Below, piece by piece: positions 5,501 to 18,667 of a DNA stretch of 64,000 bases. The DNA comes from Candidatus Omnitrophota bacterium (GTDB lineage: Bacteria; Omnitrophota; Gorgyraeia; Gorgyraeales; Gorgyraeaceae): positions 16,988-80,987 of the forward strand of contig JAUSEX010000052.1 of assembly GCA_030649895.1 (NCBI GenBank), in the 5' to 3' direction. Below the pieces are notes generated by a model. That model did no database searches. It saw only the letters and a list, made by a program, of their open reading frames with translations, and had not been told where the DNA came from. The position numbers and the translations under genes were made by a program. The stretch's first letter is position 1. Every line of letters starts with the position of its first letter.

Positions 5501-5626
5501 ACCAGCCATATTCCCAATACGCGAGGGGTATATTGAGATATCCATGGCCTTCTACGCTATTGATACGGGCCTCAAAAGAGCCGCCATAGTTAAATTTTAC
5601 ATCTACCAGGCCATAACCTTTTAATT

Positions 5627-7313: not shown

Positions 7314-7432
7314 ACTTTACAGTATATCATATTTCTAAACTAAAAACAAGCTTATGGTTTAAATTTTATTATTCTTGTATATTGTGGGTTTACTTTTTAA
7401 TATTATTCTAAACATCGTCTCTGTATCTGCCA

Positions 7433-7557
7433 TATCTGTAATATACATCTTACCATCCGTAGCCAGCATTTTTAAACCGTTACATTTTGTAACGGTTTCA
7501 CTACCCTTTCGCTACTATATAAGACACATCTCAAAGGTGTTTTCTTTCAAAAATTTT
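7433..7557. repeat. Composite repeat unit, copy 1: 25-bp perfect palindrome AAACCGTTACATTTTGTAACGGTTT (7474-7498) followed by the conserved 40-nt motif (7518-7557).
   Basis: Near-identical to the unit at 15623-15748. The palindrome also occurs at 11284-11308 with compensatory changes (GTGAC...GTCAC). Confidence 0.8.
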
Positions 7558-7987
7558 AAAATATTTCATTCCTTAAAATCCCGACTACATACCCCACATT
7601 CCTTAATGGATTATCAGTGCGCATTTTGGAGACTTTTTCAACGGCTTTGCGCACATCATTTTCATTGTATTCTTTCATAATCCTTATGAAATTCTCAACC
7701 ACTTTTGGGCTATAGCCTTTATCTATCATGAAGCTAAGCTCTCTGGCCTTCGCGACTTCGTCCTTTCCATAACGCGCCTCTAATCCAAGCCATTTTTTCT
7801 CCATATCTTTTTCTGAATAAAGTATACCCAGAAGATACTCGCTTGGCTCTCTATCCTCATAACCAGCGCCTTTAGCTACTCTGGCTCTTTTTATCTCCAG
7901 AACACCGTATTTTTCAAGCTCTCTCATGCTAGGGGAAATAGTAGTATGATCCACATGAAAATCCTGCGCCAGTAAATTAAGGCTCAC
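7556..7987 (-). CDS. 'Family A' winged-helix / DnaD-like domain protein, copy 1. GTG start; the N-terminus is fused to a remnant of the PLD gene's 5' region.
   Basis: MRELEKYGVLEIKRARVAKGAGYEDREPSEYLLG (wHTH-like) ... IRIMKEYNENDVRKAVEKVSKMRTDNPLRNVGYVVGILRNE (DnaD-domain-like C-terminus). The open frame extends upstream into 7988-8100 without an ATG. Confidence 0.6.
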   Translation of the reverse strand: MSLNLLAQDFHVDHTTISPSMRELEKYGVLEIKRARVAKGAGYEDREPSEYLLGILYSEKDMEKKWLGLEARYGKDEVAKARELSFMIDKGYSPKVVENFIRIMKEYNENDVRKAVEKVSKMRTDNPLRNVGYVVGILRNEIF

Positions 7988-8160
7988 AGACCACCACGGG
8001 CTATCTTTACTAAGAGATTCTTTATAGACATTGATAAAATACGCGAACTTAGCGCTTTGGCTTAGTTTCCTTGACCAGTCATATTCCCAGTAGGCAAAAT
8101 GGAAGGATAAAAAGAAATTTTAGTGAAGAGTGTTTTCAACCTATAAACATCCTATGCTTA
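7988..8160. repeat. Recombination scar. The 5' leader/signal-peptide region of the PLD gene (AATGGAAGGATAAAAAGAAATTTTAGTGAAGAG...) is fused directly to the family A gene. The PLD body has been deleted in this copy.
   Basis: Sequence 8095-8160 matches 12640-12700/12770-12830 and 16670-16740, which flank PLD genes at the other two module copies. Confidence 0.6.
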
Positions 8161-8163
8161 TGA

Positions 8164-8925
8164 TTATCCATTGCCTATTCTTTTCAAGAGCTCATCCGAG
8201 AATTTCTGGATTTCTTCTCTGGTTACCGGCTCACGATAATACAATTCATCCATCTCGTCCCGGAATCTCTCCTGAGATATACGTAAATTTTCGACTATGC
8301 TTTTTTTGTCTAAAGGCCTGAACATTTCTTTCTTTGCCAGCAATGCCAAAGCGTCATCTATATTCAATCCCAATTTTTTCTGTAATATAACCAAATCATA
8401 CGGATCCCTGGGCCTTGCCCTATCGTTAAGCGTGCGTATTTTCTCGGCAAAAATCTCGCTTGTGTCCATAACCGGACAGGAAAGCTTAACCCCGTAATAA
8501 TTCTTGTATTCCATTACTTTTGGCTCAAGCAATACTTTTTGATTAGTGTTTATATCTACCTCGATTGTATCCGGCTGGGCTAATACACCGCGGTATTGCA
8601 CGGAAAACGCTAACCCGAATTTTTTCTCTTCTATATCCTTTAATTTAAATATTTCAAAATCTGAAAATAGACTCTCCACGTCGGATAGCTTTAATTTAGT
8701 CTTCGAAGTAAAATCCAGGTCTTTCGAGAAACGAATCTGGTCCAAATAGCAGTGATAGATGGCTGTCCCGCCTTTAAAGACAAGCGCGTCTTTTAATTCA
8801 GAACCGTAAATAATACTTAAGATTACCGCTAAGAAATAATCCTTTTCAGCATCCTGCAAATTATATTTAAGGCCGCGTTTATTTAAGACCTCTAATCGCG
8901 CCCTATCCAACAAATCTATCTTCAT
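8164..8925 (-). CDS. Nucleotidyltransferase, AbiEii toxin family, number 3.
   Basis: DALVFKGGTAIYHCYLDQIRFSKDLDFTSK motif. Overlaps the upstream AbiEi gene. Confidence 0.8.
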   Translation of the reverse strand: MKIDLLDRARLEVLNKRGLKYNLQDAEKDYFLAVILSIIYGSELKDALVFKGGTAIYHCYLDQIRFSKDLDFTSKTKLKLSDVESLFSDFEIFKLKDIEEKKFGLAFSVQYRGVLAQPDTIEVDINTNQKVLLEPKVMEYKNYYGVKLSCPVMDTSEIFAEKIRTLNDRARPRDPYDLVILQKKLGLNIDDALALLAKKEMFRPLDKKSIVENLRISQERFRDEMDELYYREPVTREEIQKFSDELLKRIGNG

Positions 8926-9676
8926 AATATAACCGCCATTTCGCGTTAAATTTCTTTGAATTAGGCGTAAGTTTACTATAACCTTTGGCTCCTACGGTCT
9001 TGCGCAATTCTTCAGTATCTATTTTTAATATATCTAAAATAAATCCTAATTTTCGTCTGGCCGCCTCAGGAAATTTCCGGGCATAGGTAAACAGCCTCCT
9101 AAAATTTATTCTGTCTTTTGCTTTTTGCAGTTTCTCCAGCAGTAAATCTATGGAATAAGTGTCATTTTTAAAATAGAGATAATCTAGAATCACTTTTTCA
9201 AGCTCCGCGACTTTTACGTAGTAGCCTTCTATGTTTTCAGTCTTAAAGCCAAAATACAGCTTTTTGTTTATCTTCAGATACCGATAGGTGTTTTTTTGAA
9301 ACACGTACTTCTTGGACTTAAGATTGGTTACCGATGATACAGTACGCAACATCTGTTCGAAAAGGCCATAATGATTTAAAGCTGAATCCAGCGAAACATA
9401 AGAATCTTTATTAAAGGCATTCGCTATAATAACAGGCGAAATATTCACAAAGCCGCGCGAGGAGATATCTGAGATAAAATAAAGCCCTCTCCTCAAAGGA
9501 ATGAGCCAGCCGTTTTTTTTGAGCTCATAGACCCGCTTCTTGAGGACAAATTTCGAGTATTTCCTGCCTAATGCCTTATGGATATCGTTGGCAGTTACGA
9601 TCTTACCCGAAGCAACAATAATATCTTCTATATCCACAAGTCGTTTTTCCGTTAAAATAGTATTCTTTGAAACCAC
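8903..9676 (-). CDS. AbiEi-family antitoxin / regulator, number 3 (GTG start).
   Basis: VYELKKNGWLIPLRRGLYFISD is an AbiEi_4 winged-helix signature. AAGGGGG RBS. sigma70-like TTGACA(9730-9735)-N17-TTTAAT(9707-9712) upstream. Confidence 0.7.
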   Translation of the reverse strand: MVSKNTILTEKRLVDIEDIIVASGKIVTANDIHKALGRKYSKFVLKKRVYELKKNGWLIPLRRGLYFISDISSRGFVNISPVIIANAFNKDSYVSLDSALNHYGLFEQMLRTVSSVTNLKSKKYVFQKNTYRYLKINKKLYFGFKTENIEGYYVKVAELEKVILDYLYFKNDTYSIDLLLEKLQKAKDRINFRRLFTYARKFPEAARRKLGFILDILKIDTEELRKTVGAKGYSKLTPNSKKFNAKWRLYYEDRFVG

Positions 9677-9706
9677 TTATACACCCCCTTTACGTATCTA
9701 TCTAGA

Positions 9707-9791
9707 ATTAAACCATACAAATATACTTTTGTCAAGTAGCTTTCTTGCATATATAAGACACATCTCAAAGGTGTTTTCTTTCAAAAATTTT
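9707..9791 (-). promoter_or_regulatory. Promoter of AbiEi#3 (TTGACA-N17-TTTAAT), with the conserved 40-nt motif (9753-9791) just upstream of the -35 element.
   Basis: Minus strand: ...TTGAAAGAAAACACCTTTGAGATGTGTCTTATATATGCAAGAAAGCTACTTGACAAAAGTATATTTGTATGGTTTAATTC... Confidence 0.6.
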
Positions 9792-9866
9792 AGTTAAATA
9801 TAACTAATTTATGTAACACCTTTATTTGTAATTAATTGCAACTACTACTTAAAAGTCAATAAGCAG

Positions 9867-10703
9867 CTAATTCAAGAGTTTTTTGCTTTGAGTCTCCTTT
9901 AGATAATTTTCATGCGTTAATACTTTTTTACCGCTCTTTCTTTCCAATTCTTTTCTCGCATTGCCTGCGACAGCGCCGCCCTCTTGGGCCGCTTGCTTAT
10001 TCTCGATAAATCCCTGAGCATTTTTATTTATGGTGATTTCTTTAGTGGATGCCTCTCCAAGCATTGAGAAGATTAATTCCAAGTCATTCATATGATCCCG
10101 CAGATTTTGCCGCTTTAACCCTTTAAACTTTTTATACGCGGATGGAGTCAGGCCAAAAATTGCTTTTGATATCTCAGCGGTTAGGATTTCATATTCTTTG
10201 GGTTTCTTTACGTCTCTTTTTTGCCACTGATCAGTTAGCTCTTCACGTATAGCTATGCCGCGTATTCTCTTTTCTATCCAATCATCACTATAGCCTTTTG
10301 CCTTATATAGTGCCCGCGTTCTCTTTGTCGCCAATTCAGGGTCTTCGATTTCCTTAATCCGCTCATAGCCGACTCTTGCCAGCCACCTCTTAAATGGTTC
10401 AGCTTTAGGCGAAGGGACAGATTGAATAATACGGAATATACCTTCGGTGTTGGCGCAATCTGTTTCATACTTTTTACCATCCAATGCTTCCAATTTCAGT
10501 CCGTGACAAAATGTCACGACCTCGCATCCTTCCGCTGTCAATCTTTGTTTGAGCTTTCTCCAATATGAACCTGCATCTAAGCTCTCGGTAAGAACACCGC
10601 ATACATCCACAACCGAAAACCACCATTCATTCTTGTGAATGGTTTTCCTGATCTCTTTTTTCCGAAAAATAGCAATTTTAGTAACAGCTGTCTCTTTTGT
10701 CAT
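9867..10703 (-). CDS. DinD-like DNA-damage-inducible protein with an N-terminal Bro-N/KilA-N-like domain, copy 1.
   Basis: The N-terminus IAIFRKKEIRKTIHKNEWWFSVVDVCGVLT resembles Bro-N. The C-terminal half (LTDQWQKRDV...YKKFKGLKRQNLRDHMNDLELIFSMLGEASTKEITINKNAQGF...GGAVAGNARKELE) aligns with E. coli DinD (KGLKKNQKILDHMGSTELAANLFRATQTEE...GRKVRQTIQELGG). Confidence 0.7.
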   Translation of the reverse strand: MTKETAVTKIAIFRKKEIRKTIHKNEWWFSVVDVCGVLTESLDAGSYWRKLKQRLTAEGCEVVTFCHGLKLEALDGKKYETDCANTEGIFRIIQSVPSPKAEPFKRWLARVGYERIKEIEDPELATKRTRALYKAKGYSDDWIEKRIRGIAIREELTDQWQKRDVKKPKEYEILTAEISKAIFGLTPSAYKKFKGLKRQNLRDHMNDLELIFSMLGEASTKEITINKNAQGFIENKQAAQEGGAVAGNARKELERKSGKKVLTHENYLKETQSKKLLN

Positions 10704-10747
10704 TTATCCCTCCAGATTTTTAATTACTATATATAAATCTACCCACT

Positions 10748-10847
10748 TCTAACTTAAAAGTCAATAGGCGCTATCCGAATGTGCCTATTGGGCATGCCTT
10801 AAAATCCCCACTAAATATTCAATATTTCTTAACAAAAGTCTCGTTCA
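10748..10847. repeat. Hairpin repeat CAATAGGCgctatccgaatgtGCCTATTG plus a 3' remnant of a family A gene (...TTAAAATCCCCACTAAATAT...).
   Basis: Same element as 5350-5410 (there carrying the nested mini-hairpin) and 25990-26035. The downstream ~40 nt match the last codons of the family A genes. Confidence 0.55.
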
Positions 10848-11485
10848 TTATCTTAGTAGTTTTTTATCATGGGGTAGCTTTATATAACTGTCTTTAGTTA
10901 TAACCTTTTTGCCTGTCTTCGACTCAATTTCTTTTCTCGCTTTCCCCGCAACATGCCCGCCCTGTCGTGCCACCTTTCGATTTTCCCTGAACGTCTTTGG
11001 TTCTTTTGCATTTGAAATTTCAGCAGTGCTGGCCTCCGCAAGCATATTCAAAACAAGCTCCAAATTCGTCATGTTATCGCGCAAATTTTCCTTTTTAAGT
11101 TCTTTAAACTTTTTATATTGCTTGGTCGTTAGGCCTGCCCAGGCAAATGTAATTTCATCAGTCAAAATAGCAAAGTCACCGGCCTCTTTAACGCCGCGCT
11201 TCTGCCATTCATCAGTTAAAGCCTTACGAAGCTCAATGCTTTTTCTGTAACACGCATCTTGCCATCCGCAGCCAGCATTTTCAAACCGTGACATTTTGTC
11301 ACGGTTTCACTGCCTTCTTTTTTAAGGCGTTCTTTTAGCTTTCTCCAATACGCAAGAGGAGATACGCTATCAGTAAGCACTGATATTATATCCGCTACTA
11401 CAAAAAACCATTTTTCTGTCTTTTCGTCCCAACTACGCCTGATTTTCTTACCTTCGAATAGAGCTATCTGAGATTTTTTCTCCAT
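10848..11485 (-). pseudogene. DinD-like gene, copy 2. It is disrupted: split into two ORFs (11216-11485 N-terminal part, 10848-11294 C-terminal part) by a repeat insertion together with a ~70-aa deletion.
   Basis: N-part MEKKSQIALFEGKKIRRSWDEKTEKWFFVVADIISVLT...TKCHGLKMLAADGK and C-part ...LTDEWQKRGVKEAGDFAILTDEI...YKKFKELKKENLRDNMTNLELVLNMLAEAST both align with DinD copies 1 and 3. The segment between them (CANTEGIFRIIQS...IEKRIRG) is missing and replaced by the palindromic element at 11250-11320. Confidence 0.7.
11250..11320. repeat. Inserted copy of the 25-bp palindrome element (AAACCGTGACATTTTGTCACGGTTT at 11284-11308) with flanking CATCTTGCCATCCGCAGCCAGCATTTTC. It disrupts DinD copy 2.
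   Basis: Matches 7440-7500 and 15640-15700, except for two compensatory substitutions that keep the palindrome perfect. Confidence 0.75.
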
Positions 11486-11596
11486 TTATCCCTCCAAATT
11501 TTCATTACAAAGATTTCTATATTAAACACTTTTATTATACCACGCTTTTCAATTCTTCTCTAAGAAACTGCATCATGCGCCACCTCCTCTCTACCC

Positions 11597-11637
11597 TATA
11601 AGACACATCTGGAGGTAGTTTTCTTTCAACTATTTTT
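11597..11637 (-). promoter_or_regulatory. Conserved 40-nt motif, copy e, upstream of the DinD#2 start.
   Basis: TATAAGACACATCTGGAGGTAGTTTTCTTTCAACTATTTTT. Confidence 0.55.
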
Positions 11638-11686
11638 ACTTTTTTGATTTTTTGTGAAAAAGGCAGGTAAAACCAGATTACAAATA

Positions 11687-12061
11687 TTAATCCCTTGCTT
11701 CTTTCCTTAAAATCCCCACTAAATATCCGATATTCCTTAAAGGATTATCCGGACGCATGGAGGAGACTTTTTTGACTGCATTAGCTACATTTTTCTCACC
11801 ATACTCTCGTATAATCCTTATAAGGTTTTCTACTGCTTTGGGATTATAGCCCCTATCTATCATGAAGCTAAACTCTCTTGCCTTGGCCGCTAAGTCTTTT
11901 CCATAACGCTCTTCCATGCCGCGCCATTTTTCCTCCATGTCTTTTTCTGAATAAAGTATACCCAAAAGATACTCGCTTGGCTCTCTATTCTCATAATCAG
12001 CGCCTTTAGCTATCCTAGTTCTTTTTATCTCCAGGACGCCGTATTTCTCAAGCTCTCTCAT
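11687..12061 (-). CDS. 'Family A' winged-helix / DnaD-like domain protein, copy 2 (124 aa).
   Basis: MRELEKYGVLEIKRTRIAKGADYENREPSEYLL...NPLRNIGYLVGILRKEARD. Paralog of 7556-7987 and 15722-16153. Confidence 0.6.
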   Translation of the reverse strand: MRELEKYGVLEIKRTRIAKGADYENREPSEYLLGILYSEKDMEEKWRGMEERYGKDLAAKAREFSFMIDRGYNPKAVENLIRIIREYGEKNVANAVKKVSSMRPDNPLRNIGYLVGILRKEARD

Positions 12062-12252
12062 GCCAGGGGAATTAAAGCCAATGATTTATCCTTTAAGAAC
12101 CTGGCAGGGCATTTGATCATTACAATCTGCGCTTCATCTATAGATCTCTTATCCACAAAAGGCCGTAACTTAAGAATATTCTTTAATTTTTCCTTAGCAT
12201 ACTCTCTGGATATTATTAAATCCGCATTCTCGCTATTTAACCTGAATGCTGA

Positions 12253-12687
12253 CTATGACCAGTTAGAGCTTCCTGATATTACAATATTTTTATCAATGAC
12301 TATTAATTTATCATGAAGCCTTTTACCAGGCATAATAAATTTAACCGGCACGCCCTCTCTATAAAGCGCTAAAAAGGCAGAATCGTTCTTATCTTCATTA
12401 TAGGGTTTACTCCTATCTAAATAGACCTCTACTTTTACACCTCTAGTATGCGCGTTTACTATATCCTGAACCAGCTTATACGCTTCGCTTTCTGTCTTAT
12501 CCAACTCCATGGATATCTCATACATCGCTATATAAAGAGAGTCCTTTGATTTGGAAAGCGCTTCGTGGGCGGCCTGGAAATATTTATCATCGCTTATGTC
12601 TTTAATATCTACCTGAATCGCGAAACTTTTGATTGGAAATAATAAAAATGGAAGGATGAAAATGAAGCCCACCCAGGTTAAAGCCAT
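12253..12687 (-). pseudogene. Secreted PLD-superfamily (Nuc-like, HKD) nuclease, truncated by a nonsense codon immediately after the HKD motif.
   Basis: Signal peptide MALTWVGFIFILPFLLFPIKSFA|IQ; HKD motif HDKLIVIDKNIVISGSSNWS. The TAG directly after NWS corresponds to TAT (Tyr) in the paralog at 16150-16566, whose frame continues ...YSAFRLNSENADLII... for 60 more codons. Confidence 0.6.
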
Positions 12688-12824
12688 GGGTTCTTGTGGG
12701 CGGAATACTGAGCGGCCTGAACATATTCGCACCCTAAAGGGCGTGGTTTTAGGCCGCGAATGTAGAAATTTTAGGGAAGAGTATTTCAATCTATAAACAT
12801 CCTATCAGGCCTATCCGGCACCCC

Positions 12825-13985
12825 TTATAACACATTGCCTGCCCATAGTTCAGACAAAAAATCTCTCCAAGGTATAATCTGTATTTTACCGCTAACCCTT
12901 TTTTCCTTTTCATTACACACAAGCACAGCTTTTTTTGGAGAATATTCCTCAATAAATGCCTTCAATGATTTCAAATCCCTGCCATCAATCCTGCTCGAAC
13001 CTTTTACTTCTATAGCCACTTCTCCCTTTCCAAGCACAAAATCCACCTCCAGCCCTGATTTGGTCCTCCAAAAATTAATATCAAAATCCGACTCGCTGTA
13101 AGAACGGTAGGCGTTTATCTCCATAAGGATTAAATGTTCGAATGCCTTGCCAAACTCTTCTCCCTTAATATCCTCTAAATGCCGCTTAGTCAATATCCCG
13201 CTGACTCCGACATCGAACAAATAATATTTCGGAGCGCTTATAATAACATTACGGCTTTGCCTTCTTTTAAAAGGCTCCAGCCTTATCGCCAATAACGTAT
13301 CCACCAGTATCTGATAATACTCCCTTACGGTCTTCGCGTTTACCCCGCAGTCCCTGGCAATATTTGAATAATTCGTCAACTCTCCGTGCGAATATCCAAT
13401 AGCGTCAAAAAACCTGGAAAACGCCGGAATATTGCGGACGAGCCCTTCGTTGAAGACCTCTTCCTTTAAATAATCCTGAACATATGCTATTAAAGATTTT
13501 CTGTAATTTTTATCATCCAGATAATGCGAAGGCACCATTCCATGGTTTAATGCTCTCAAGAGGTCTACATTCTTAAGCTCAGCGCTTACGAACGGAAAAA
13601 GCTGGTAACGCCATGCCCTGCCCCCCAGTAAATTAGCATGGCCTCTCTTTAACTTCCTGGCGCTCGAACCGCATAATATAAAACTTAAGCCCTTATTTTC
13701 TATCAGCCAGTGAATCTCATCTAGGATTTGAGGAATTTTTTGAACCTCATCTAATATTATAGGCTTAGTTAGACTTTTTTCTTCTTTCGCGAGCAGTCTT
13801 TCGCGGAATAAGGAAGGATTTTTGGATAGCTCAAAAAATAGATCAGTCTTCAGAAAATCATAATATAGACTGTCAGGAAAATGCTCCTTGAGATAGCTGG
13901 TTTTTCCGGTCTTTCTGGGCCCCCATAAAAACGCGGATTGGCCTTTGGGCAGTTTTATTTTTAAAAGCCTTTTTATGTTTTCCAT
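12825..13985 (-). CDS. AAA+ ATPase (AAA_14-like) with a C-terminal DUF4143 / PD-(D/E)xK-like domain, copy 1.
   Basis: Walker A GPRKTGKTS; Walker B ILDEVQ; CGSSARKL; C-terminal ...EVDFVL...IEVK (D..E.K nuclease-like). Confidence 0.8.
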   Translation of the reverse strand: MENIKRLLKIKLPKGQSAFLWGPRKTGKTSYLKEHFPDSLYYDFLKTDLFFELSKNPSLFRERLLAKEEKSLTKPIILDEVQKIPQILDEIHWLIENKGLSFILCGSSARKLKRGHANLLGGRAWRYQLFPFVSAELKNVDLLRALNHGMVPSHYLDDKNYRKSLIAYVQDYLKEEVFNEGLVRNIPAFSRFFDAIGYSHGELTNYSNIARDCGVNAKTVREYYQILVDTLLAIRLEPFKRRQSRNVIISAPKYYLFDVGVSGILTKRHLEDIKGEEFGKAFEHLILMEINAYRSYSESDFDINFWRTKSGLEVDFVLGKGEVAIEVKGSSRIDGRDLKSLKAFIEEYSPKKAVLVCNEKEKRVSGKIQIIPWRDFLSELWAGNVL

Positions 13986-13996
13986 ATAGAACCTTA

Positions 13997-14050
13997 CTCC
14001 TAATTAGTTCGACTAGTTAGGAGTATATCACACAAACTATAAGCTGTCAA
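13997..14050 (-). promoter_or_regulatory. Promoter of AAA#1: TTGACA(14045-14050)-N17-TATACT(14022-14027), followed by an imperfect palindrome CTCCTAATTAGT-tcg-ACTAGTTAGGAG (13997-14023) that overlaps the RBS.
   Basis: Minus strand: cTTGACAgcttatagtttgtgtgaTATACTcctaactagtcgaactaattaggagtaaggttctatATG. Confidence 0.65.
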
Positions 14051-14082
14051 GCGCCTCCTGATTTTTCACATGATCAAAACTC

Positions 14083-15351
14083 TCATCCCAACAACCACTT
14101 ATAAATAGGCTTAACCATTATAACCTTCCCTTCTAACGCAATCTCTTCCTCGGTATCTTCAGTCAAAATAAGCGCAGTTTTCAACTTAAGTTCATCCATG
14201 GCTTTTATCAGCGCATTGAGCTCTCTCGATCTCGTTTTTTCGTTATCTAAATTATCCGCAACCTGAATAAGCAATAGATCATTTTTGCCAGACTTGACCA
14301 AGAAATCAACTTCCAGATTATTTGTGGTCTTATAATAATAAATCTCTTGGAACTTGCGCCTAAGCTCAAGGAATACCAAGTTTTCTAAAAACTTTCCCTT
14401 ATTCTTGGAAAATTGGAATGCGACCGCTTCTGCCAAACCATTGTCGATACAGTAAATCTTCTTAAAGGAGACAAACTGCTGTTTGAGAGAATAAGAAAAC
14501 CTGCTGATGAGGAATATCAAGTAGCTGTTTTCCAAGAAATCCGCGTAGCTCTTGATGGTATTCATGCTGCCTACTCCAAGAACTTTTTTCAGATTATTAT
14601 AAGAGAATGTCCCTCCGAGATTACTCAAAAGATACAGCCCAAGCTCCCTCAATGGTTTAACCTGCTTGATACCATATCTTGCCACGATGTCCCGGTAAAG
14701 AATGTCTTCATATACCCGCTTCAAAAGGGTTGTATCTTGATACTTCAAATACTCGGGCATGCCTCCATGCTTGAGATATTCAGCAAAATGCTTCTTGATA
14801 GCAGCTCTAACTGAGGTCAAAGACAGGCTGTCCTTGGATAACTGGAAACCCTTGAAAGAGAGAAATTCCATAAAAGAGAACGGGAACAATTCAATGTTAA
14901 CGTTTCTGCCTGTCAGTTTCGCGCCAAGCTCCTTGCTAAGCAATGAGGCATTCGAACCTGTGATAAAAAATTTGCATCCCTTACCTTGCATCCGACGCAC
15001 AAACACTTCCCATTGGGGAACGTTCTGAACCTCATCGAAAAAGAAAACCTTTTTATCTCCATACAACTCCAGAAACACCTCGTAAAGATGATTGAAATCC
15101 TCAACATTGAAGTCCACAAGGCGTTCATCTTCAAAATTAAGATAATAAACACCTTTCTTGTAAAGATTACTGATAATCTGATTGAGCAATGTAGACTTGC
15201 CAGAACGGCGCACTCCTGAAACAACTACCGCATGGGGTAAAGTTGCATGCCGTGAAGCAACACTCAATGCTGCCCTTGGAATACCAATATCTATATCCTG
15301 ACGATCTTTTTCTTGTTCAAGAACGATTTCTTTTAATAATGACTTATGCAT
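14083..15351 (-). CDS. AAA+ ATPase (AAA_14-like) with a C-terminal DUF4143 / PD-(D/E)xK-like domain, copy 2.
   Basis: Walker A GVRRSGKST; Walker B FFDEVQ; ITGSNASLL; C-terminal ...EVDFLV...IQV. Confidence 0.8.
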   Translation of the reverse strand: MHKSLLKEIVLEQEKDRQDIDIGIPRAALSVASRHATLPHAVVVSGVRRSGKSTLLNQIISNLYKKGVYYLNFEDERLVDFNVEDFNHLYEVFLELYGDKKVFFFDEVQNVPQWEVFVRRMQGKGCKFFITGSNASLLSKELGAKLTGRNVNIELFPFSFMEFLSFKGFQLSKDSLSLTSVRAAIKKHFAEYLKHGGMPEYLKYQDTTLLKRVYEDILYRDIVARYGIKQVKPLRELGLYLLSNLGGTFSYNNLKKVLGVGSMNTIKSYADFLENSYLIFLISRFSYSLKQQFVSFKKIYCIDNGLAEAVAFQFSKNKGKFLENLVFLELRRKFQEIYYYKTTNNLEVDFLVKSGKNDLLLIQVADNLDNEKTRSRELNALIKAMDELKLKTALILTEDTEEEIALEGKVIMVKPIYKWLLG

Positions 15352-15366
15352 CCTGTCTCCTTATGT

Positions 15367-15416
15367 TCTCACTGTTAATGAGAGTATATCATATATAGTT
15401 CTCATTGTCAATGAGA
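15367..15416 (-). promoter_or_regulatory. Promoter of AAA#2: TTGACA(15406-15411)-N17-TATACT(15383-15388), flanked by two 17-bp palindromic operators TCTCATTGTCAATGAGA (15400-15416, containing the -35) and TCTCACTGTTAATGAGA (15367-15383, at the transcription start).
   Basis: Minus strand: tctcaTTGACAatgagaactatatatgaTATACTctcattaacagtgagaacatAAGGAGAcaggATG. Confidence 0.7.
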
Positions 15417-15622
15417 ATAAGGATCTAAGTTCTTCAAAAATTCTGCAGCCTCTCTCATGAAATCCTCTATTAAGACCTACTGTATTGCTTTCAGCAATTC
15501 CAGATCGTTTAACATCCGATTCAGGCATCTGCACAGAAAGGGTGGTGGCAATTTGCCTCCACCCTTTAGCCAACTACGAATCCCTTTCTATATTATCACT
15601 CAATTCTCTATTAACAATAGCC

Positions 15623-15748
15623 ATATCTGTAATATGCATCTTGCCATCCGCAGCCAGCATTTTCAAACCGTTACATTTTGTAACGGTTTCACTACCCTCT
15701 CGCTACTATATAAGACACATCTCAAAGGTGTTTTCTTTCAAAAATTTT
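15623..15748. repeat. Composite repeat unit, copy 2: 25-bp palindrome (15665-15689) plus the conserved 40-nt motif (15709-15748).
   Basis: About 95% identical to 7433-7557. Confidence 0.8.
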
Positions 15749-16153
15749 AAAAATAAATAAACCGCGCAGGTGATTCATTAGTCTTTTGCTTCTTTCTTCA
15801 AAATCCCCACTAAATATCCGGATATTCCTTAAAGGATTATCCGGACGCATGGAGGAGACTTTTTCAACGGCTTTGCGCACGTCATTTTCATTGTATTCTT
15901 TCATAATCCTTATGAAATTCTCAACCACCTTTGGGCTATAGCCTTTGTCTATCATAAAGCTGAATTCCCGGGCTTTGGCTACCGTGTCCTTACCGTAAAG
16001 CTTTTCCATGCCAAGCCATTTTTTCTCCATATCTTTTTCTGAATAAAGTATACCCAGAAGATACTCGCTTGGCTCTCTATTCTCATGACCAACGCCTTTG
16101 GCTATCCTAGCTCTTTTTATCTCCAGGACGCCATATTTTTCAAGCTCTCTCAT
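15722..16153 (-). CDS. 'Family A' winged-helix / DnaD-like protein, copy 3. The C-terminus is altered by a +1 frameshift (extra G in ATCCGGATATT), so it reads through into the repeat unit.
   Basis: Identical to the other copies up to RPDNPLRNI, then diverges (RIFSGDFEERSKRL...) instead of GYLVGILRKE. The DNA still encodes the ancestral ending in the -1 frame. Confidence 0.55.
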   Translation of the reverse strand: MRELEKYGVLEIKRARIAKGVGHENREPSEYLLGILYSEKDMEKKWLGMEKLYGKDTVAKAREFSFMIDKGYSPKVVENFIRIMKEYNENDVRKAVEKVSSMRPDNPLRNIRIFSGDFEERSKRLMNHLRGLFIFKIFERKHL

Positions 16154-16566
16154 GCCAGGGAAATTGGAGCCAATGATTTATCCTTTAAGAACCTGGCAGG
16201 GCATTTTATCGTTACAATCTGCGCTTCATCTATAGATCTCTTATCCACAAAAGGCCTAAGCCTTAGGATATTCTTTAATTTTTCCTTGGCATACTCTCTG
16301 GATATTATTAAATCAGCATTCTCGCTATTTAACCTGAATGCTGAATATGACCAGTTAGAGCTTCCTGATATTACAATAAATTTAACCGGCACGCCCTCTC
16401 TATAAAGCGCTAAAAAAGCTGAATCGTTCTTATCTTCATTATAGGGTTTACTCCTATCCAAATAGACCTCTATATTTACGCCTCTAGTATGCGCATCTAT
16501 TATATCCTGAACCAGCTTATACGCTTCGCTTTCAGTTTTATCCAGCTCCATAGATATCTCATACAT
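16150..16566 (-). pseudogene. PLD/Nuc-like nuclease paralog lacking the ATG and signal-peptide start region and carrying a 48-nt in-frame deletion that removes the catalytic HKD His-Lys segment.
   Basis: ...VKFIVISGSSNWSYSAFRLNSENADLIISREYAKEKL... The segment MPGKRLHDKLIVIDKN present at 12290-12337 is absent; the deletion is flanked by an ACAATA direct repeat. The upstream frame has no ATG and hits TAG. Confidence 0.6.
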
Positions 16567-16723
16567 CGCTATATAAATAGAGTCCTTTGATTTGGAAAGC
16601 GCTTCGTGGGCGGCTTGGAAATATTTGTCATCGCTTATATCTTGGATATCTACTTGGACTGCGAAACTTTTGATTGGAAATAATAAAAATGGAAGGATAA
16701 AAAAAATTTTAGGGAAAAGTATT

Positions 16724-18667
16724 TCAATCTATAAATTCCCTATGCCAGAGTTCCAGAAATAGAAGGCTCCAAATTCTGGCACCGTTGTTGGCTTTGCAGG
16801 CCATATGATCATCCAGAAGTTTCTTTACGGTCTCTTTTTTAAAATAACTTCTCTTTATGGCTTTATCGCTCATGAGGATATCATGCGAATAACCTTTTAG
16901 TTCATTGCGGAACCAAGAGTCTAAAGGCACGCCAAAACCCATTTTGCTTCTGGAAAGTATTTCTTTGGGCAATGCCTTGGATAATGCTTTCTTTAATATA
17001 TATTTTAATTTTGTGCCTTTTATTTTCATGCTACTCGGCATGCTGGCGCAGAATTCCATCATTTTATGGTCTAGAAACGGCGAACGGCCTTCCAAGGAAT
17101 TGGCCATTGTAGCAATATCCATTTTTACAAGCAGATCATCCAATAGATTAGTTTTTATATCAGCGCACATTACCTTATCCACCACATCTTCAGAGCCGCA
17201 TTCATTAAACGCTTTATCTAAATAATTAAATGAATTCCTGCCGGATATTTCTTTATTAAATTCATCAGTAAACAGGTTATTCTTTTCGTGATCATTAAAT
17301 ATAGCCGTCCAATTATAATGTCTTTCCCTGTATGGTTTAGGCAATTCCACCAGAAATCTTCTAATCCTAGCTTTAGAATCCTTAACCCCGAGAGATTCAG
17401 GTATCTTCCCTGTAATCAATTTTATAATCTTTTCCTTAAATGGAGCTGGTATTTTATTGATTAATTCCGCGTATCTCGTGGCCATAAACCTCTCGTATCC
17501 TCCAAAACACTCATCTCCCCCATCTCCATTTAGAGCCACTGTGACTTCCTGTCTGGTCATTTTAGCTACATAATAACTCGGAAGCGCTGAAGAATCAGCG
17601 TATGGTTCATTGTAATGCCATACAAGTTTTGGCAAAAGATCTATAGCGTCTGGTTTAACAATATATTCATGATGTTCTGTTTTAAACCGTTCAGCGATAA
17701 TTTTAGCGTATTTTAATTCGCTATACTCTTTATTATCAAAACCTATGGAAAATGTTTTTACAGGCTTTGAACTTAGTTTACTCATCATATATACTACAGC
17801 ACTCGAATCTATACCCCCGCTTAAAAACGCTCCGAGCGGAACATCGCTTATAAGCCGTATCTTTGTGCACTCCTCCAGCATATCCATTGTCCTGTCGCAA
17901 TATTCTTTCTCGGATAATTTTAGTTTCTTAGAAAAATCAAGCTTCCAGTATTTTTCTAATCTTATATTGCCTTTTTCATAGATCATAAAATGAGCAGGCG
18001 GAAGTTTCATAATGCCTTTAAACATAGTTTCAGGCGTAGGCGTATATCCGTAACTTAGGTAATCTGTAATGGCAGGCCTGTTGACCTCTTTAGAAATATC
18101 GGGATCTTGAAGAATGGCCTTGATCTCAGAAGCAAAGGTCAATGTTTGGTTCTTATATGTATAATAAAGCGGCTTTTTACCTATCCTATCCCGCGCCATA
18201 AAAAGCCTTTCTTTTTTATTGTCCCATATAGCAAAAGCAAAAGGCCCTCTTAAATCCTTAAGGCACTCCACGCCTTTTTCTTCATACAGATGTAAAATTA
18301 CCTCTGTATCAGTATGCGACTTAAAAATATGGCCTTTTTTTACAAGCTCGTCTTTTAATTCTATAAAATTATAAATTTCACCGTTCAGAACTATCCAAAT
18401 AGACCCATCTTCGTTACTCATTGGCTGATGGCCTGCGGGCGATAAATCAATAATAGCGAGCCTCCTATGCCCCAAACCAACGTTAGCAATATTGTTCGAG
18501 CGAGGCAAAATATACTTCTCGACTTCGCTCGAAGAATATTTTGCCGAGTCGAGAACCTTTATCCCCTCATTATCCGGCCCTCTATGCGTAAGAACCCCGC
18601 ACATCTTTCTGATGAGCTCTTCCGTCACATTCCCATTCGCACTAATTTTCCCGCATATCCCGCACAT
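16724..18667 (-). CDS. asnB: Asparagine synthetase B-like glutamine amidotransferase, copy 1, carrying an in-frame palindromic-element insertion near the N-terminus.
   Basis: N-terminal MCGICG... (Cys2 Ntn-hydrolase nucleophile), LGHRRLAIIDL, and a synthetase domain SGGIDSS. An extra ~24-aa segment DSAKYSSSEVEKYILPRSNNIAN lies between HRGPDNEG and LGHRR relative to the paralog at 46419-48314, and is encoded by 18488-18557. Confidence 0.9.
   Translation of the reverse strand: MCGICGKISANGNVTEELIRKMCGVLTHRGPDNEGIKVLDSAKYSSSEVEKYILPRSNNIANVGLGHRRLAIIDLSPAGHQPMSNEDGSIWIVLNGEIYNFIELKDELVKKGHIFKSHTDTEVILHLYEEKGVECLKDLRGPFAFAIWDNKKERLFMARDRIGKKPLYYTYKNQTLTFASEIKAILQDPDISKEVNRPAITDYLSYGYTPTPETMFKGIMKLPPAHFMIYEKGNIRLEKYWKLDFSKKLKLSEKEYCDRTMDMLEECTKIRLISDVPLGAFLSGGIDSSAVVYMMSKLSSKPVKTFSIGFDNKEYSELKYAKIIAERFKTEHHEYIVKPDAIDLLPKLVWHYNEPYADSSALPSYYVAKMTRQEVTVALNGDGGDECFGGYERFMATRYAELINKIPAPFKEKIIKLITGKIPESLGVKDSKARIRRFLVELPKPYRERHYNWTAIFNDHEKNNLFTDEFNKEISGRNSFNYLDKAFNECGSEDVVDKVMCADIKTNLLDDLLVKMDIATMANSLEGRSPFLDHKMMEFCASMPSSMKIKGTKLKYILKKALSKALPKEILSRSKMGFGVPLDSWFRNELKGYSHDILMSDKAIKRSYFKKETVKKLLDDHMACKANNGARIWSLLFLELWHREFID
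18488..18557. repeat. Nested palindromic element, copy F (permuted compact form), in frame inside asnB.
   Basis: AATATT GTTCGAGCG(18494-18502) aggcaaaatat A CTTCTCGAC(18515-18523) ttc GCTCGAAGAATATTTTGCC gag TCGAGAACC. Confidence 0.8.

What the first reader, a model, noticed from the sequence alone, without database searches (positions are those of the whole stretch)
7556..16566. Two-gene module (secreted PLD/Nuc-like nuclease followed by a winged-helix/DnaD-like protein) present three times, each copy inactivated differently
At 12 kb, the PLD gene has an intact signal peptide and HKD motif but a TAT-to-TAG nonsense codon right after GSSNWS. At 16 kb, the PLD gene lacks its start region and has a clean 48-nt deletion, flanked by an ACAATA direct repeat, that removes the catalytic His-Lys; it retains the full C-terminus, and the downstream family A gene has a +1 frameshift. 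At 8 kb, the PLD body is deleted entirely, leaving its 5' leader fused to the family A gene, which then uses a GTG start. In addition, the 12-kb copy alone carries a 105-nt GC-rich segment (12688-12790) that supplies the ATG. This is a clear snapshot of paralogue decay and gene conversion, and suggests the nuclease is costly to keep active.
Basis: seen in the sequence. Interest (0 to 1): 0.55.

Follow-up and report, generated by a model that had tools for sequence, protein, structure and literature searches.

The report
Decayed copies of one secreted nuclease gene
The supposed nuclease-plus-partner gene pair, seen three times, is really at least six broken copies of one gene for a secreted DNA-cutting, DNA-binding protein: ordinary gene decay in an uncultured groundwater-type bacterium, though the intact protein family has not been studied.

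Summary
The repeats are real, but the "two-gene module" is a single gene. Intact relatives encode one secreted protein of about 480 aa. These include P0007 (482 aa), the orthologue on L008, and 121 full-length cluster representatives. The protein has a signal peptide, a Nuc-type PLD nuclease domain, two winged helices and a DnaD-like helical tail.

The window holds at least six decayed copies on the minus strand, at about 5.4, 8, 10.8, 12, 16 and 27 kb. Most are followed by a Bro-N gene, itself decayed after four of the six.

- **Shared lesion:** the 12-kb and 16-kb copies carry the same 418-nt out-of-frame deletion. It removes winged helix 1 and half of winged helix 2, and this creates the apparent gene pair.
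- **8-kb copy:** an 833-nt deletion inside the same gene.
- **12-kb copy only:** TAT>TAG, and a 102-nt in-frame insertion of a dispersed hairpin repeat.
- **16-kb copy only:** a 51-nt (not 48-nt) deletion of the HKD motif between 9-nt direct repeats, plus a -1 and a +1 frameshift.

The copies are recombinant mosaics. Nothing supports a toxin/immunity pairing or a costly nuclease, because the catalytic motif is intact in all 121 full-length relatives. This is pseudogene decay in a toxin-antitoxin-rich and defence-rich island of a Candidatus Omnitrophota metagenome-assembled genome (MAG).

The parts
12076..12801 (-). 12-kb copy, 5' part: leader, probable native TTG start (12787-12789), signal-peptide codons and the PLD domain. 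Corresponds to residues 9-216 of the intact protein.
   Evidence: tblastn of P0007; PLDc_2 E=2e-23; alignment to intact L004, L001 and L008.
12658..12763 (-). Net 102-nt in-frame insertion of a two-hairpin repeat inside the signal-peptide codons. It supplies the ATG at 12685-12687.
   Evidence: Absent from the 8-kb and 16-kb copies and from L001, L004 and L008. An 81-nt version sits at the same site in L003/L021. Related copies occur in at least 6 other flanking contexts. Fold z = -2.8.
12253..12255 (-). TAG nonsense codon in place of the conserved Tyr after GSSNWS (12-kb copy).
   Evidence: Y157>*.
12053..12087 (-). Scar of the 418-nt out-of-frame deletion in the 12-kb copy (junction between 12072 and 12071). 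It removes winged helix 1 and half of winged helix 2.
   Evidence: Same alignment columns gapped as in the 16-kb copy; 418 nt are present there in both L004 and L008.
11687..12061 (-). 12-kb copy, 3' part ('family A', 124-aa ORF). Corresponds to residues 360-482 of the intact protein and starts at an internal Met in the recognition helix of winged helix 2.
16162..16727 (-). 16-kb copy, 5' part. TTG at 16725-16727. A T8 run at 16699-16706 gives a -1 frameshift. The 51-nt in-frame deletion of HxK...D has its junction in AAATTTATT at 16375-16383.
16145..16179 (-). Scar of the same 418-nt deletion in the 16-kb copy (junction between 16164 and 16163).
15722..16153 (-). 16-kb copy, 3' part, with an extra C at about 15820-15821 (+1 frameshift) that replaces the conserved GYxVGIL tail.
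7556..8139 (-). 8-kb copy. Leader with TTG (8137-8139) and one extra A. An 833-nt deletion (junction between 8096 and 8095) runs from the signal-peptide codons to the start of winged helix 2. The frame is open for residues 299-480, and the first usable start is GTG at 7987.
   Evidence: AlphaFold2 model of this frame has pLDDT 95.8.
5400..5627 (-). Remnant: residues about 266-311 joined to about 450-482 of the same gene. It begins immediately after the stop of the AbiEii gene.
10785..10817 (-). Remnant of only the last ~10 codons (...YLVGILRHAQ*), lying between two Bro-N genes.
   Evidence: Repeat family D6. A similar tail remnant (residues 448-480 of P0007) follows Bro-N in L001.
25952..27184 (-). 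Divergent paralogue (33% identity). ORF 26060-27148 has an intact HDK motif, winged helix 1 and part of winged helix 2. A stop at 26060-26062 falls inside winged helix 2, and the remainder is decayed with several stops. No ATG or GTG precedes the signal-peptide-like segment, and the only TTG (the ORF start at 27146-27148) lies inside it.
   Evidence: About 93% nt-identical syntenic copy in L028 is truncated at almost the same codon.
21735..21766 (-). Scrap of the paralogue ('EAFNDLKK' codons) fused to the intergenic D4 motif. The same junction occurs in L028.
10848..11485 (-). Bro-N gene following the 12-kb copy, split by an internal deletion. Residues 1-83 and 147-274 are 94% identical to the intact L001 gene.
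7401..7511 (-). Bro-N fragment (from about codon 56) following the 8-kb copy.
15619..15702 (-). Bro-N fragment following the 16-kb copy. With the D4 motif it is 96% identical to the 8-kb locus (repeat family D5).

Best explanation
All three loci, and at least three further remnants in the window, are pseudogene copies of one ancestral gene of about 1.45 kb. That gene encodes a single exported protein. It has a Sec-type signal peptide, one Nuc/NucT-type PLD (HKD) nuclease domain, two tandem winged-helix domains, and a C-terminal helical domain ending in a DnaD-like DNPxRxxxYxxGIL motif.

In the intact protein (inferred), two chains pair through their PLD domains to form one active site, as in Nuc and NucT. 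The winged-helix and DnaD-like half holds the enzyme on DNA. The protein would act outside the cytoplasm on periplasmic or extracellular DNA.

In this genome the gene, usually with a Bro-N gene downstream, has multiplied along an accessory island. The island is rich in AbiE toxin-antitoxin pairs and AAA_14-DUF4143 ATPases. The copies have since decayed through illegitimate and repeat-mediated deletions, +/-1 frameshifts, one nonsense mutation and one insertion of a small hairpin repeat.

A 418-nt frameshifting deletion shared by the 12-kb and 16-kb copies cuts the ORF in two. This produced the illusion of a nuclease gene followed by a small winged-helix gene. The copies have exchanged segments by homologous recombination.

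Shown: gene structure, lesions, mosaicism, domain folds. Inferred: export, dimerisation, DNA substrate, order of events.
For: One ORF in intact relatives:
- P0007 (482 aa, 96% identical to the query over the C-terminal 280 aa), P0008 and P0010 (sequences).
- L004 carries the uninterrupted gene.
- L008, from a related Omnitrophota MAG, has an uninterrupted copy 85-97% identical to the 12-kb copy over most of the gene (71% in one 60-column window). It lies behind the same ATPase gene (96% aa identity).
- An exhaustive search gives 174 cluster representatives at E<1e-30. Of the representatives retrieved, 121 of 147 are 440-540 aa. All 121 have the HKD motif, and 111 of 121 have an N-terminal hydrophobic segment.

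Domains:
- PLDc_2 E=2e-23.
- Profile against PDB: Nuc 1BYR 8.7e-21, Zucchini, NucT.
- AlphaFold2 model pLDDT 90.3, and Foldseek 1BYR TM 0.84.
- H, K, D, G, S, N and E of the motif are invariant in 48 sequences.
- The model of the window's own 8-kb frame has pLDDT 95.8, with winged-helix topology plus a five-helix bundle. The best structural matches are RepA_N initiator winged helices 5KBJ and 4PQL.

Lesions.
Extra remnants.
Mosaicism.

The divergence between copies mostly arose under purifying selection (dN/dS 0.1-0.2). Few changes are lineage-specific. Inactivation is therefore recent relative to the divergence of the copies.

Relatives from other samples show the same kind of decay:
- L001: frameshift plus a tail remnant.
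- L003: truncation.
- L016: leader, hairpin repeat and tail only.
- L029: in-frame stop.

Against: - The 12-kb and 16-kb copies share the 418-nt deletion, yet their PLD parts differ by dS 0.25 with dN/dS 0.12. Taken at face value, the split form was under selection for some time. I attribute this to recombination with intact alleles, because only 13 of the 35 differences are private. That is an inference.
- All five larger fragments still have ORFs and are annotated as ordinary CDS in GenBank. Expression cannot be excluded.
- Export rests on sequence pattern only, and no signal-peptide predictor was available.
- DnaD membership is below curated thresholds.
- The source is a MAG. Single-base lesions and the mosaic 16-kb copy could be consensus or assembly artefacts.
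- Only 64 kb of the genome was visible, so an intact copy elsewhere is possible.
Confidence: 0.8

Rival explanations
1. The split form is a real, derived two-gene arrangement. After the 418-nt deletion, a stand-alone secreted PLD nuclease (about 209 aa) and a small DnaD-like protein (124 aa) were both kept for some time. Each copy was then inactivated more recently. This is, without the toxin/immunity idea.
For: - The same deletion is present in two copies whose PLD parts differ at 7% of sites with dN/dS 0.12.
- The stop of the PLD frame overlaps the ATG of the next ORF (GCATGA), which looks like translational coupling.
- Both 3' ORFs have an ATG.
Against: - The 124-aa product starts in the middle of the recognition helix of winged helix 2. 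It lacks helices 1, 2 and half of helix 3, so the domain cannot fold as in the intact protein.
- The ATG is a conserved internal Met of the intact protein.
- Each truncated product is a singleton 90% cluster among 15 billion proteins.
- Shorter database proteins that looked stand-alone turned out to be cut by a contig end (L030) or by an in-frame stop in a single ORF (L029).
- Most differences between the 12-kb and 16-kb copies are shared with intact alleles, which indicates recombination rather than long independent history.
Confidence: 0.1
2. Toxin/immunity-like pair. 'Family A' would be a separate protein that neutralises the PLD nuclease, and the copies decay because the nuclease is harmful.
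For: - The neighbourhood is rich in toxin-antitoxin systems (AbiEi/AbiEii pairs).
- The overlapping stop and start are as.
Against: - In 121 full-length relatives the two parts are one polypeptide.
- No conserved partner gene is found next to distant members.
- The nuclease carries an export signal, so a cytoplasmic antidote is not expected.
- The catalytic motif is universally kept.
Confidence: 0.03
3. Artefact. The nonsense codon, the +/-1 frameshifts and the mosaic copy come from sequencing or consensus errors, or from chimeric assembly of near-identical repeats in a metagenome bin.
For: - The source is a MAG.
- Two frameshifts lie in or next to homopolymers (T8; ATATCCGG).
- The copies share 60-nt blocks of 95-100% identity where an assembler could switch paths.
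Against: - The 418-, 833- and 51-nt deletions and the 102-nt insertion are not of a kind produced by base-calling errors. The two large deletions have no long repeats at their junctions that could collapse in assembly.
- Every copy carries several independent lesions.
- Contigs from other samples and assemblers show analogous decay: L001 and L002 carry an identical frameshift in two samples, and L003, L016 and L028 are also decayed.
Confidence: 0.07
4. The truncated copies are silent donor cassettes, analogous to pilS or vls. They would be kept because they diversify an expressed copy of the secreted protein by gene conversion.
For: - Mosaic alleles occur in the window and between samples. L001 and L004 are 98-100% identical across the 3' half but only 72-92% identical in the 5' half.
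- In the C-terminal region, variable blocks are flanked by conserved blocks.
- All copies have the same orientation.
Against: - No intact expressed copy is seen in the window or among the NCBI proteins of this contig.
- The remnants cover different, haphazard parts of the gene and carry frameshifts and stops.
- The neighbouring Bro-N genes decay in the same way.
- Distant family members are single-copy in unrelated contexts that look chromosomal rather than mobile.
Confidence: 0.04

Closest known systems
Nuc of plasmid pKM101 (PDB 1BYR) and NucT of Helicobacter pylori (PDB 6EHI): single-HKD PLD-family endonucleases
   Same: - One HxK(x)4D(x)6GSxN motif per chain.
- Same fold: Foldseek TM 0.84 to 1BYR, and profile E 8.7e-21.
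- An N-terminal export signal. NucT has a 23-residue signal peptide, is periplasmic and membrane-associated, and works as a dimer with the active site at the interface (PMC5714352).
   Different: - Nuc and NucT are about 155-180 aa and have no further domains.
- The intact family here adds about 280 residues: two winged helices and a DnaD-like helical domain.
- NCBIfam NucT models score 51 bits against cut-offs of at least 211, so this is not a NucT equivalog.
- The window copies are all broken.
BfiI-type enzymes: a PLD nuclease domain fused to a DNA-binding domain (from my own knowledge, not tested here)
   Same: The design principle: a metal-independent PLD nuclease that dimerises to form one active site, tethered to separate DNA-binding domains.
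   Different: - BfiI is cytoplasmic, has a B3-like DNA-binding domain and belongs to a restriction-modification system.
- This family has an export signal, winged-helix/DnaD-like domains and no conserved methyltransferase neighbour.
DnaD / DnaB_2 (PF07261, TIGR01446) and RepA_N plasmid initiators (PDB 5KBJ, 4PQL)
   Same: - A winged helix followed by a helical domain that ends in a ...NP.R...Y..GIL(..W) motif.
- Weak hits to phrog_186 'DnaD-like helicase loader' (5e-5), DnaD_dom and DnaB_2.
- The best structural matches of the window's own 8-kb frame are RepA_N winged helices.
   Different: - All sequence scores are below curated cut-offs (18 bits against 22-25).
- Foldseek E is only about 9e-3, with TM 0.4-0.5.
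- Those proteins are cytoplasmic replication factors, whereas this one carries an export signal and a nuclease.
Rickettsia palindromic elements and other intragenic miniature repeats (for the 102-nt insert)
   Same: - A short, hairpin-forming, dispersed repeat inserted in frame in a coding region and translated as extra residues.
- Such in-frame insertions are described for RPEs (PMC10969869).
- Here the lengths are 102 nt and 81 nt, both multiples of three, at the same site in two relatives. Copies occur in at least 6 other flanking contexts.
   Different: - No sequence relation to RPEs.
- Shorter (75-106 nt).
- No terminal inverted repeats or target duplication could be defined.
- Only two intragenic cases were seen, both in this gene.
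DISARM DrmC and other defence-island PLD nucleases
   Same: - Weak PLD-domain similarity (PADLOC DrmC 6e-12; NCBIfam DrmC 34 bits).
- Located in an island with AbiE pairs and the PADLOC candidates PDC-S01 and PDC-S13.
   Different: - Far below the DrmC cut-off of 133 bits.
- No DrmA, DrmB or methyltransferase partners.
- An export signal is present.
- Distant members sit in unrelated contexts that look chromosomal rather than mobile.

Membership tests
PLD superfamily, Nuc-type nuclease (Pfam PLDc_2) | Score above the Pfam gathering threshold. | tested here: met
   Reconstructed 12-kb copy: 83 bits against 27. P0007: 76 bits. 27-kb paralogue: 73 bits.
PLD superfamily, Nuc-type nuclease (Pfam PLDc_2) | Complete HxK(x)4D(x)6GSxN catalytic motif in an uninterrupted ORF. 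| tested here: not met
   - In the window, the 12-kb copy has the motif but stops one codon after NWS.
- The 16-kb copy lacks H, K and D (51-nt deletion).
- The 8-kb copy lacks the domain altogether.
- The 27-kb paralogue has the motif, but no ATG or GTG precedes its signal-peptide-like segment (the only TTG lies inside it) and it is truncated downstream.
- The motif is met in all 121 full-length relatives.
PLD superfamily, Nuc-type nuclease (Pfam PLDc_2) | Nuc fold. | tested here: met
   Tested on the intact relative. AlphaFold2 pLDDT 90.3. Foldseek 1BYR E 1.4e-9, TM (target) 0.84, rmsd 2.2.
PLD superfamily, Nuc-type nuclease (Pfam PLDc_2) | Homodimer forming one active site; nuclease activity. 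| not testable with these tools
   Inferred from Nuc and NucT (PMC5714352). Relatives with two PLD domains in one chain (P0037, P0045, P0051, P0129) fit the need for two HKD motifs.
NucT equivalog (NCBIfam NF010490-93) | Score above the curated cut-off. | tested here: not met
   51 bits against 211 for the best model.
DnaD / DnaB_2 domain (PF07261, TIGR01446) | Score above the curated cut-off. | tested here: not met
   Best scores are 18.5 bits against 22 (DnaB_2) and 18.1 against 24.95 (DnaD_dom), in one or two relatives only. None for the window ORFs.
DnaD / RepA_N-type winged helix | Structural match of the winged helix. | tested here: inconclusive
   The model of window frame 7559-8065 has pLDDT 95.8. 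Top Foldseek hits are RepA_N 5KBJ and 4PQL, with E about 9e-3 and TM 0.40/0.52 over 98 columns, among many generic winged-helix regulators.
Sec-exported protein | N-terminal signal peptide: basic n-region, hydrophobic core, small residues at -3 and -1. | tested here: inconclusive
   The pattern is visible in P0010 (MKKFILALLLILVLPFTSFA|FQAD) and in 111 of 121 relatives by a crude hydrophobic-segment test. No dedicated predictor was available. In the window, only the 12-kb copy keeps such a segment in frame.
Two-gene toxin-antitoxin or toxin-immunity module | Two separate genes in intact representatives. | tested here: not met
   The architecture is a single ORF in intact relatives. No conserved neighbour gene.
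Intragenic miniature repeat (RPE-like / MITE-like), for the 102-nt insert | Dispersed copies in unrelated contexts. | tested here: met
   Nine of 14 metagenome matches carry the two-hairpin element, in at least 6 different flanks. The other 5 are bare 18-mer matches. No second copy in the window.
Intragenic miniature repeat (RPE-like / MITE-like), for the 102-nt insert | Terminal inverted repeats and target-site duplication. | tested here: inconclusive
   None recognisable in the window copy. Some copies (L015, L019, L027) are flanked by CAAGCAAAAAATG / CATTTTTTGCTTG.
Integron attC site, considered for the D4 intergenic motif | R''(RYYYAAC) ... R'(GTTRRRY) imperfect palindrome at cassette ends. 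| tested here: not met
   No GTTRRRY or RYYYAAC in or next to the 7 copies (read). No integrase seen in the window.

The most novel reading that the evidence does not exclude
The island between about 0.8 and 27 kb is an array of exchangeable gene modules joined at a conserved intergenic motif (D4: TTGAAAGAAA-N9-AGATGTGTCT). The motif has 7 exact copies, all in one orientation, and each sits right after a stop codon. The nuclease-gene remnants would be scars of module turnover at that motif. This would be a cassette-type recombination system unlike integrons.

Points in its favour:
- Three independent truncations of the gene (8-kb copy, 16-kb copy, and the L028 paralogue) end exactly at D4.
- Synteny between the window and L028 breaks at D4.

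A related unexcluded reading is that the remnants feed gene conversion of an expressed copy elsewhere.
Probability: 0.06. Interest if true: 0.7.

Novelty: new variant of a known kind. Interest (0 to 1): 0.35.

Why it matters
For this genome, the result corrects the annotation. Six GenBank CDS (MDO8603506, -10, -11, -14, -15 and -24) are fragments of one gene type, not independent proteins. It also removes a tempting but wrong toxin/immunity story.

More broadly, it points to an uncharacterised and fairly widespread protein family. There are 174 clusters at 50% identity with E<1e-30. The members that could be traced to a source organism are mostly Candidatus Omnitrophota. In this family a Nuc-type nuclease with an export signal is permanently fused to replication-protein-like DNA-binding domains, which is an unexpected combination outside the cytoplasm.

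If the protein is exported, it would be a DNA-tethered nuclease acting on periplasmic or extracellular DNA. That bears on DNA scavenging, on barriers to DNA uptake, and possibly on the host-dependent lifestyle proposed for this phylum (that proposal is from my own knowledge).

The locus also gives a clear example of deletion-biased decay and recombination among paralogues. It includes an in-frame hairpin-repeat insertion outside Rickettsia.

Tried and rejected
- **Toxin/immunity pair.** Rejected because intact relatives are single ORFs.
- **Natural stand-alone 'family A' proteins.** The candidates P0085 and P0150 were checked. One is cut by a contig end and the other follows an in-frame stop within one ORF.
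- **Conserved gene neighbourhood of distant members.** None found in seven loci. The Bro-N association holds only among close relatives.
- **Defence-system membership.** Only weak PLD-domain hits to DrmC.
- **DnaD membership.** Below thresholds. The profile against PDB gave no DnaD hit.
- **Rfam.** No family in the window at gathering level, and nothing meaningful on the insert. No tRNA or tmRNA.
- **Integron attC reading of the D4 motif.** The consensus is absent.
- **D4 as an SD-sequestering hairpin.** A hairpin forms in 4 of 7 tested copies, but folding energies are not significant.
- **D4 as a promoter companion.** The consensus scan showed no excess of promoter-like sites.
- **D4 in viral contigs.** No match.
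- **Covariance model of the hairpin repeat.** Not built, because hairpin 1 could not be aligned consistently.
- **The search for related loci with the 48-sequence alignment.** Failed for lack of a conserved stretch. A 7-sequence alignment worked.
- **dN/dS as a test of current function.** Confounded by recombination.
- **The source genome.** It is not among the loci returned from the species-representative genome scan, so the rest of the genome could not be searched for an intact copy.

Full report
**What is in the sequence.** The region lies in a Candidatus Omnitrophota MAG. The truncated products are GenBank proteins MDO8603506-24 on a 164-kb contig. All genes are on the minus strand.

Three loci are clearly related at DNA level, at 7.4-8.2, 11.5-12.85 and 15.6-16.8 kb. 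The C-terminal 300 nt are 79-80% identical between them. The PLD parts of the 12-kb and 16-kb loci are 92-93% identical.

- TAG directly after GSSNWS in the 12-kb copy (12253-12255).
- Loss of the His-Lys segment in the 16-kb copy.
- A +1 C near the 3' end of the 16-kb copy.
- The 5' leader joined to the C-terminal frame in the 8-kb copy, with GTG at 7987 as the first usable start.
- An extra, GC-richer segment only in the 12-kb copy, which supplies an ATG.

**The unit is one gene, not two.** Searching with the repaired PLD part found metagenome proteins in which the sequence ...IKCPARFLKDKSL continues in frame into a winged-helix-like region (P0001, P0002, P0005). Searching with that continuation found full-length proteins:
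- P0007, 482 aa, 96% identical to the query.
- P0008, 411 aa, cut by a contig end.
- P0010, 484 aa, 29% identical, with the same architecture.

L004 carries the uninterrupted 1449-nt gene. An exhaustive HMMER search with P0007 gave 174 representatives of 50%-identity clusters at E<1e-30. Of the 147 retrieved, 121 are 440-540 aa and align end to end. All 121 have HxK(x)4D...G[ST]xN, and 111 have an N-terminal hydrophobic segment. Those that could be traced are mostly Omnitrophota, annotated 'hypothetical' or, wrongly, 'cardiolipin synthase'.

**Architecture of the intact protein.**
- Residues about 12-35 look like a Sec signal peptide. Examples are MKKFILALLLILVLPFTSFA|FQAD in P0010, and probably MKYSSLKFLFILPFLLFPIKSFA|VQVD from a TTG start with a GGAGAGGA Shine-Dalgarno-like (ribosome-binding) sequence 10 nt upstream in L001.
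- The PLD domain matches Nuc of pKM101. Profile against PDB gives 8.7e-21. The AlphaFold2 model has pLDDT 90.3 and pTM 0.79. Foldseek to 1BYR gives TM 0.84. NucT and Zucchini follow.
- The catalytic H, K, D, G, S, N and E are invariant in 48 diverse members.
- Two tandem winged helices follow, each opening with an '(I)P..F/YW...LS..AK..YL' segment.
- The protein ends in a five-helix domain with the motif DNPxRxxxYxxGIL.
- A model of the window's own 8-kb reading frame (7559-8065) has pLDDT 95.8. Its best structural matches are the winged helices of RepA_N plasmid initiators (5KBJ, 4PQL), at a weak E of about 9e-3.
- Hits to DnaD_dom, DnaB_2, HTH_36 and phrog_186 are all below curated thresholds.

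'DnaD-like' is therefore a fair description of what the region resembles, not an established membership. A minority of relatives carry two PLD domains in one chain. This fits the rule that two HKD motifs make one active site.

**Lesions, measured against intact L004 and L008.**

12-kb copy:
- A net 102-nt in-frame insertion in the signal-peptide codons (about 12658-12763).
- TAT>TAG.
- A 418-nt deletion (junction 12072/12071).
- The downstream Bro-N gene has lost residues 84-146.

16-kb copy:
- T8 in place of TTTCTTTTT (16699-16706), a -1 shift just after the TTG start.
- A 51-nt in-frame deletion, not 48 nt. It removes MPGKRLHDKLIVIDKxI and lies between two copies of AAATTTATT that are intact in L001. 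This is the signature of slippage or repeat-mediated deletion.
- The same 418-nt deletion (junction 16164/16163).
- An extra C at about 15820.
- The downstream Bro-N gene is reduced to a fragment.

8-kb copy:
- One extra A in the leader.
- An 833-nt deletion from the signal-peptide codons to the start of winged helix 2 (junction 8096/8095).
- The 3' end is replaced at the D4 motif.
- Only a Bro-N fragment remains downstream.

The 418-nt deletion is out of frame. It runs from just after ...KSLA(P) to the middle of the recognition helix of winged helix 2. The PLD frame then hits TGA, and the conserved internal Met (GMRELEKY) becomes the first ATG of a new ORF. That is the whole origin of the apparent gene pair. 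Judged against the model, the 124-aa product lacks helices 1, 2 and half of helix 3 of its winged helix.

**More copies.** tblastn with P0007 against the whole window, the repeat families and direct reading show:
- A remnant at 5400-5627, with residues about 266-311 joined to about 450-482.
- A remnant of only the last ~10 codons at 10785-10817, between two Bro-N genes.
- A divergent paralogue at 25952-27184 (33% identity). It has an intact HDK motif, but no ATG or GTG before its signal-like segment, a stop inside winged helix 2, and a decayed tail.
- A scrap of that paralogue at 21735-21766.

Read along the minus strand, the order recurs: nuclease gene, Bro-N, AbiEi, AbiEii. AAA_14-DUF4143 ATPases are interspersed. 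All of this lies downstream of a long polysaccharide-biosynthesis cluster. PADLOC lists the Bro-N gene as candidate PDC-S13 and the ATPases as PDC-S01.

**Recombination and timing.** Sliding-window identities show three things:
- The 12-kb copy is closest to L008, at 85-97% over most of the gene. L008 is uninterrupted over its visible length and follows the same ATPase gene (96% aa identity), so it is the intact orthologue.
- The 16-kb copy is 12-kb-like through the PLD part and the first half of the C-terminal region. It is then 8-kb-like (88-100% identical) through the second half, D4 and the Bro-N fragment.
- L001 and L004, from different samples, are 98-100% identical over the 3' half but 72-92% identical in the 5' half.

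Pairwise dN/dS between copies is 0.1-0.2, so most divergence arose while the genes were under selection. Changes private to a single window copy are few: 9 and 4 in about 530 nt of the PLD part.

The 12-kb and 16-kb copies share the deletion but only one derived substitution. Of their 35 PLD differences, 22 are states also found in intact alleles. A simple tree cannot explain this. Exchange among copies and alleles can. I therefore read the shared deletion as spread by duplication or conversion, with later recombination.

The alternative cannot be excluded, and I give it about 10%. In that reading, the split form was functional for a while.

**Relatives decay too.**
- L001 and L002, from two samples, carry a 1-nt deletion in an A-run that splits the ORF. 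L001 also has a tail remnant after Bro-N.
- L003 has a copy truncated after HDKLIVI, next to the paralogue.
- L016 retains only the leader, the hairpin repeat and the tail.
- L028, syntenic with the 27-kb region, has the paralogue cut at nearly the same codon but joined to D4.
- L029, a distant member, has an in-frame stop between the PLD part and winged helix 1.

This argues against a pure assembly artefact in the window. It also shows that loss of this gene is recurrent in the lineage.

**The insert.** The 12-kb insert folds into two GC-rich hairpins (z = -2.8). L003/L021 has an 81-nt version at the same site. Its first stem has a different sequence but still pairs: GCGGCC/GGCCGC against GCCCGCC/GGCGGGC.

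An 18-mer from the conserved linker found 14 metagenome contigs. Nine carry the element, with the form ACATTCGC, hairpin 1, CTCAGTATTCCG, CCCAC...GTGGG, CTCCATTTT. These lie in at least six different flanking contexts. The other five are bare 18-mer matches of the kind expected by chance.

It is thus a dispersed miniature repeat. Both intragenic copies have lengths that are multiples of three, as described for Rickettsia palindromic elements (PMC10969869). Rfam has nothing like it.

**How it most likely works.**

For the intact protein (inferred): it is exported through Sec and forms a dimer through the PLD domain. The dimer builds one phosphohistidine-type active site, as in Nuc and NucT (PMC5714352). 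The two winged helices and the DnaD-like domain bind DNA. The result would be a DNA-tethered nuclease acting in the periplasm or outside the cell. Possible roles are scavenging, limiting incoming DNA, or attacking other cells' DNA. Distant members are single genes in unrelated contexts that look chromosomal rather than mobile, with no conserved partner.

For the window (shown): none of the six copies can make that protein.

Why the gene multiplied and then decayed here is not established. The simplest reading is neutral loss of redundant copies in a recombination-prone accessory island. There is no evidence that the nuclease is harmful.

**Verdict.** The phenomenon is ordinary. The by-products are of moderate interest: an unstudied exported nuclease-DnaD-like fusion family, an in-frame hairpin repeat, and a conserved intergenic motif at module borders.

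Noticed in passing
window 814-842, 3184-3212, 7522-7550, 9756-9784, 11601-11629, 15713-15741, 21713-21741 (all minus strand); also L016 and L028: A conserved intergenic motif (D4), TTGAAAGAAA-N9-AGATGTGTCT. It has 7 exact matches against 0.01 expected, all within the first 22 kb. Each lies just after a stop codon and ahead of a different gene. In three copies (814, 3184, 11601) it forms a CCUCC...GGAGG hairpin over the next gene's Shine-Dalgarno sequence. The 8-kb and 16-kb nuclease copies and the L028 paralogue are truncated exactly at it. It is not attC-like, is not in Rfam or IMG/VR, and its folding energies are not significant.
   Followed up: partly
window 12658-12763; L014, L015, L016, L019, L021, L024-L027: A dispersed two-hairpin miniature repeat (75-106 nt) with a conserved linker CTCAGTATTCCGCCCAC and a covarying first stem. 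It is present in several groundwater-type metagenome contigs in different contexts. Longer nested variants occur in L014 and L016, and some copies are flanked by CAAGCAAAAAATG / CATTTTTTGCTTG.
   Followed up: partly
window about 5375-5399: A 25-nt GC-rich hairpin (CCCCGTACCACAAGGGTACGGGG) sits right after the stop of the 5.4-kb remnant. It is absent from the otherwise similar 3' flank in L001 and L004. It may be another small inserted palindrome, or a terminator.
   Followed up: no
window 21735-21766 compared with L028 3200-3260: The last codons of the AbiEii gene (21748-22794) overlap a scrap of the nuclease paralogue ('EAFNDLKK') fused to D4. This is the same junction that ends the paralogue in L028. 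Relative to L028, the window therefore carries about 4.3 kb between two copies of that segment: the decayed tail, a retropepsin-like gene, YhcG, Bro-N and AbiEi/AbiEii.
   Followed up: partly
L001 and L004 (metagenome contigs from different samples): The two alleles are 98-100% identical over the last ~830 nt of the nuclease gene and, where both contigs extend, 100% in the start of the Bro-N gene. They are only 72-92% identical in the PLD half. This is a sharp recombination breakpoint inside the gene.
   Followed up: partly
P0037, P0045, P0051, P0129 (relatives, 637-680 aa): Family variants with two PLD domains in one chain ahead of the same winged-helix/DnaD-like region. They are presumably a fused pseudo-dimer.
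   Followed up: no
L029 1-1143: In a distant family member, one in-frame stop codon separates the PLD part from the winged-helix part. The gene caller therefore reports a 269-aa 'stand-alone' C-terminal protein, P0085.
   Followed up: yes
window 9867-10703, 23518-24351, 12825-13985, 14083-15351, 18751-19890, 20277-21608: The Bro-N genes match PADLOC candidate PDC-S13 (E 1.9e-121 for 9867-10703). Two AAA_14-DUF4143 ATPases that were tested match candidate PDC-S01, and the window holds four such ATPases. With three AbiEi/AbiEii pairs plus a fourth AbiEii-like gene without an AbiEi partner, the first 27 kb look like a defence/toxin-antitoxin island set beside a polysaccharide-biosynthesis cluster.
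   Followed up: partly
window 3050-3160 (minus strand, downstream of the D4 motif at 3184-3212): An 84-aa ORF whose N-terminus looks like a truncated RhuM-type protein (MVDQDKFFKGEIVIYSD...VWLTQAKIAKLF). The RhuM resemblance is from my own knowledge and was not tested. It may be another decayed accessory gene.
   Followed up: no
whole window: Almost every ORF of 150 aa or more (54 of 55) is on the minus strand. GC skew is negative in every 1-kb bin. No tRNA, tmRNA or Rfam family was found in 64 kb.
   Followed up: no
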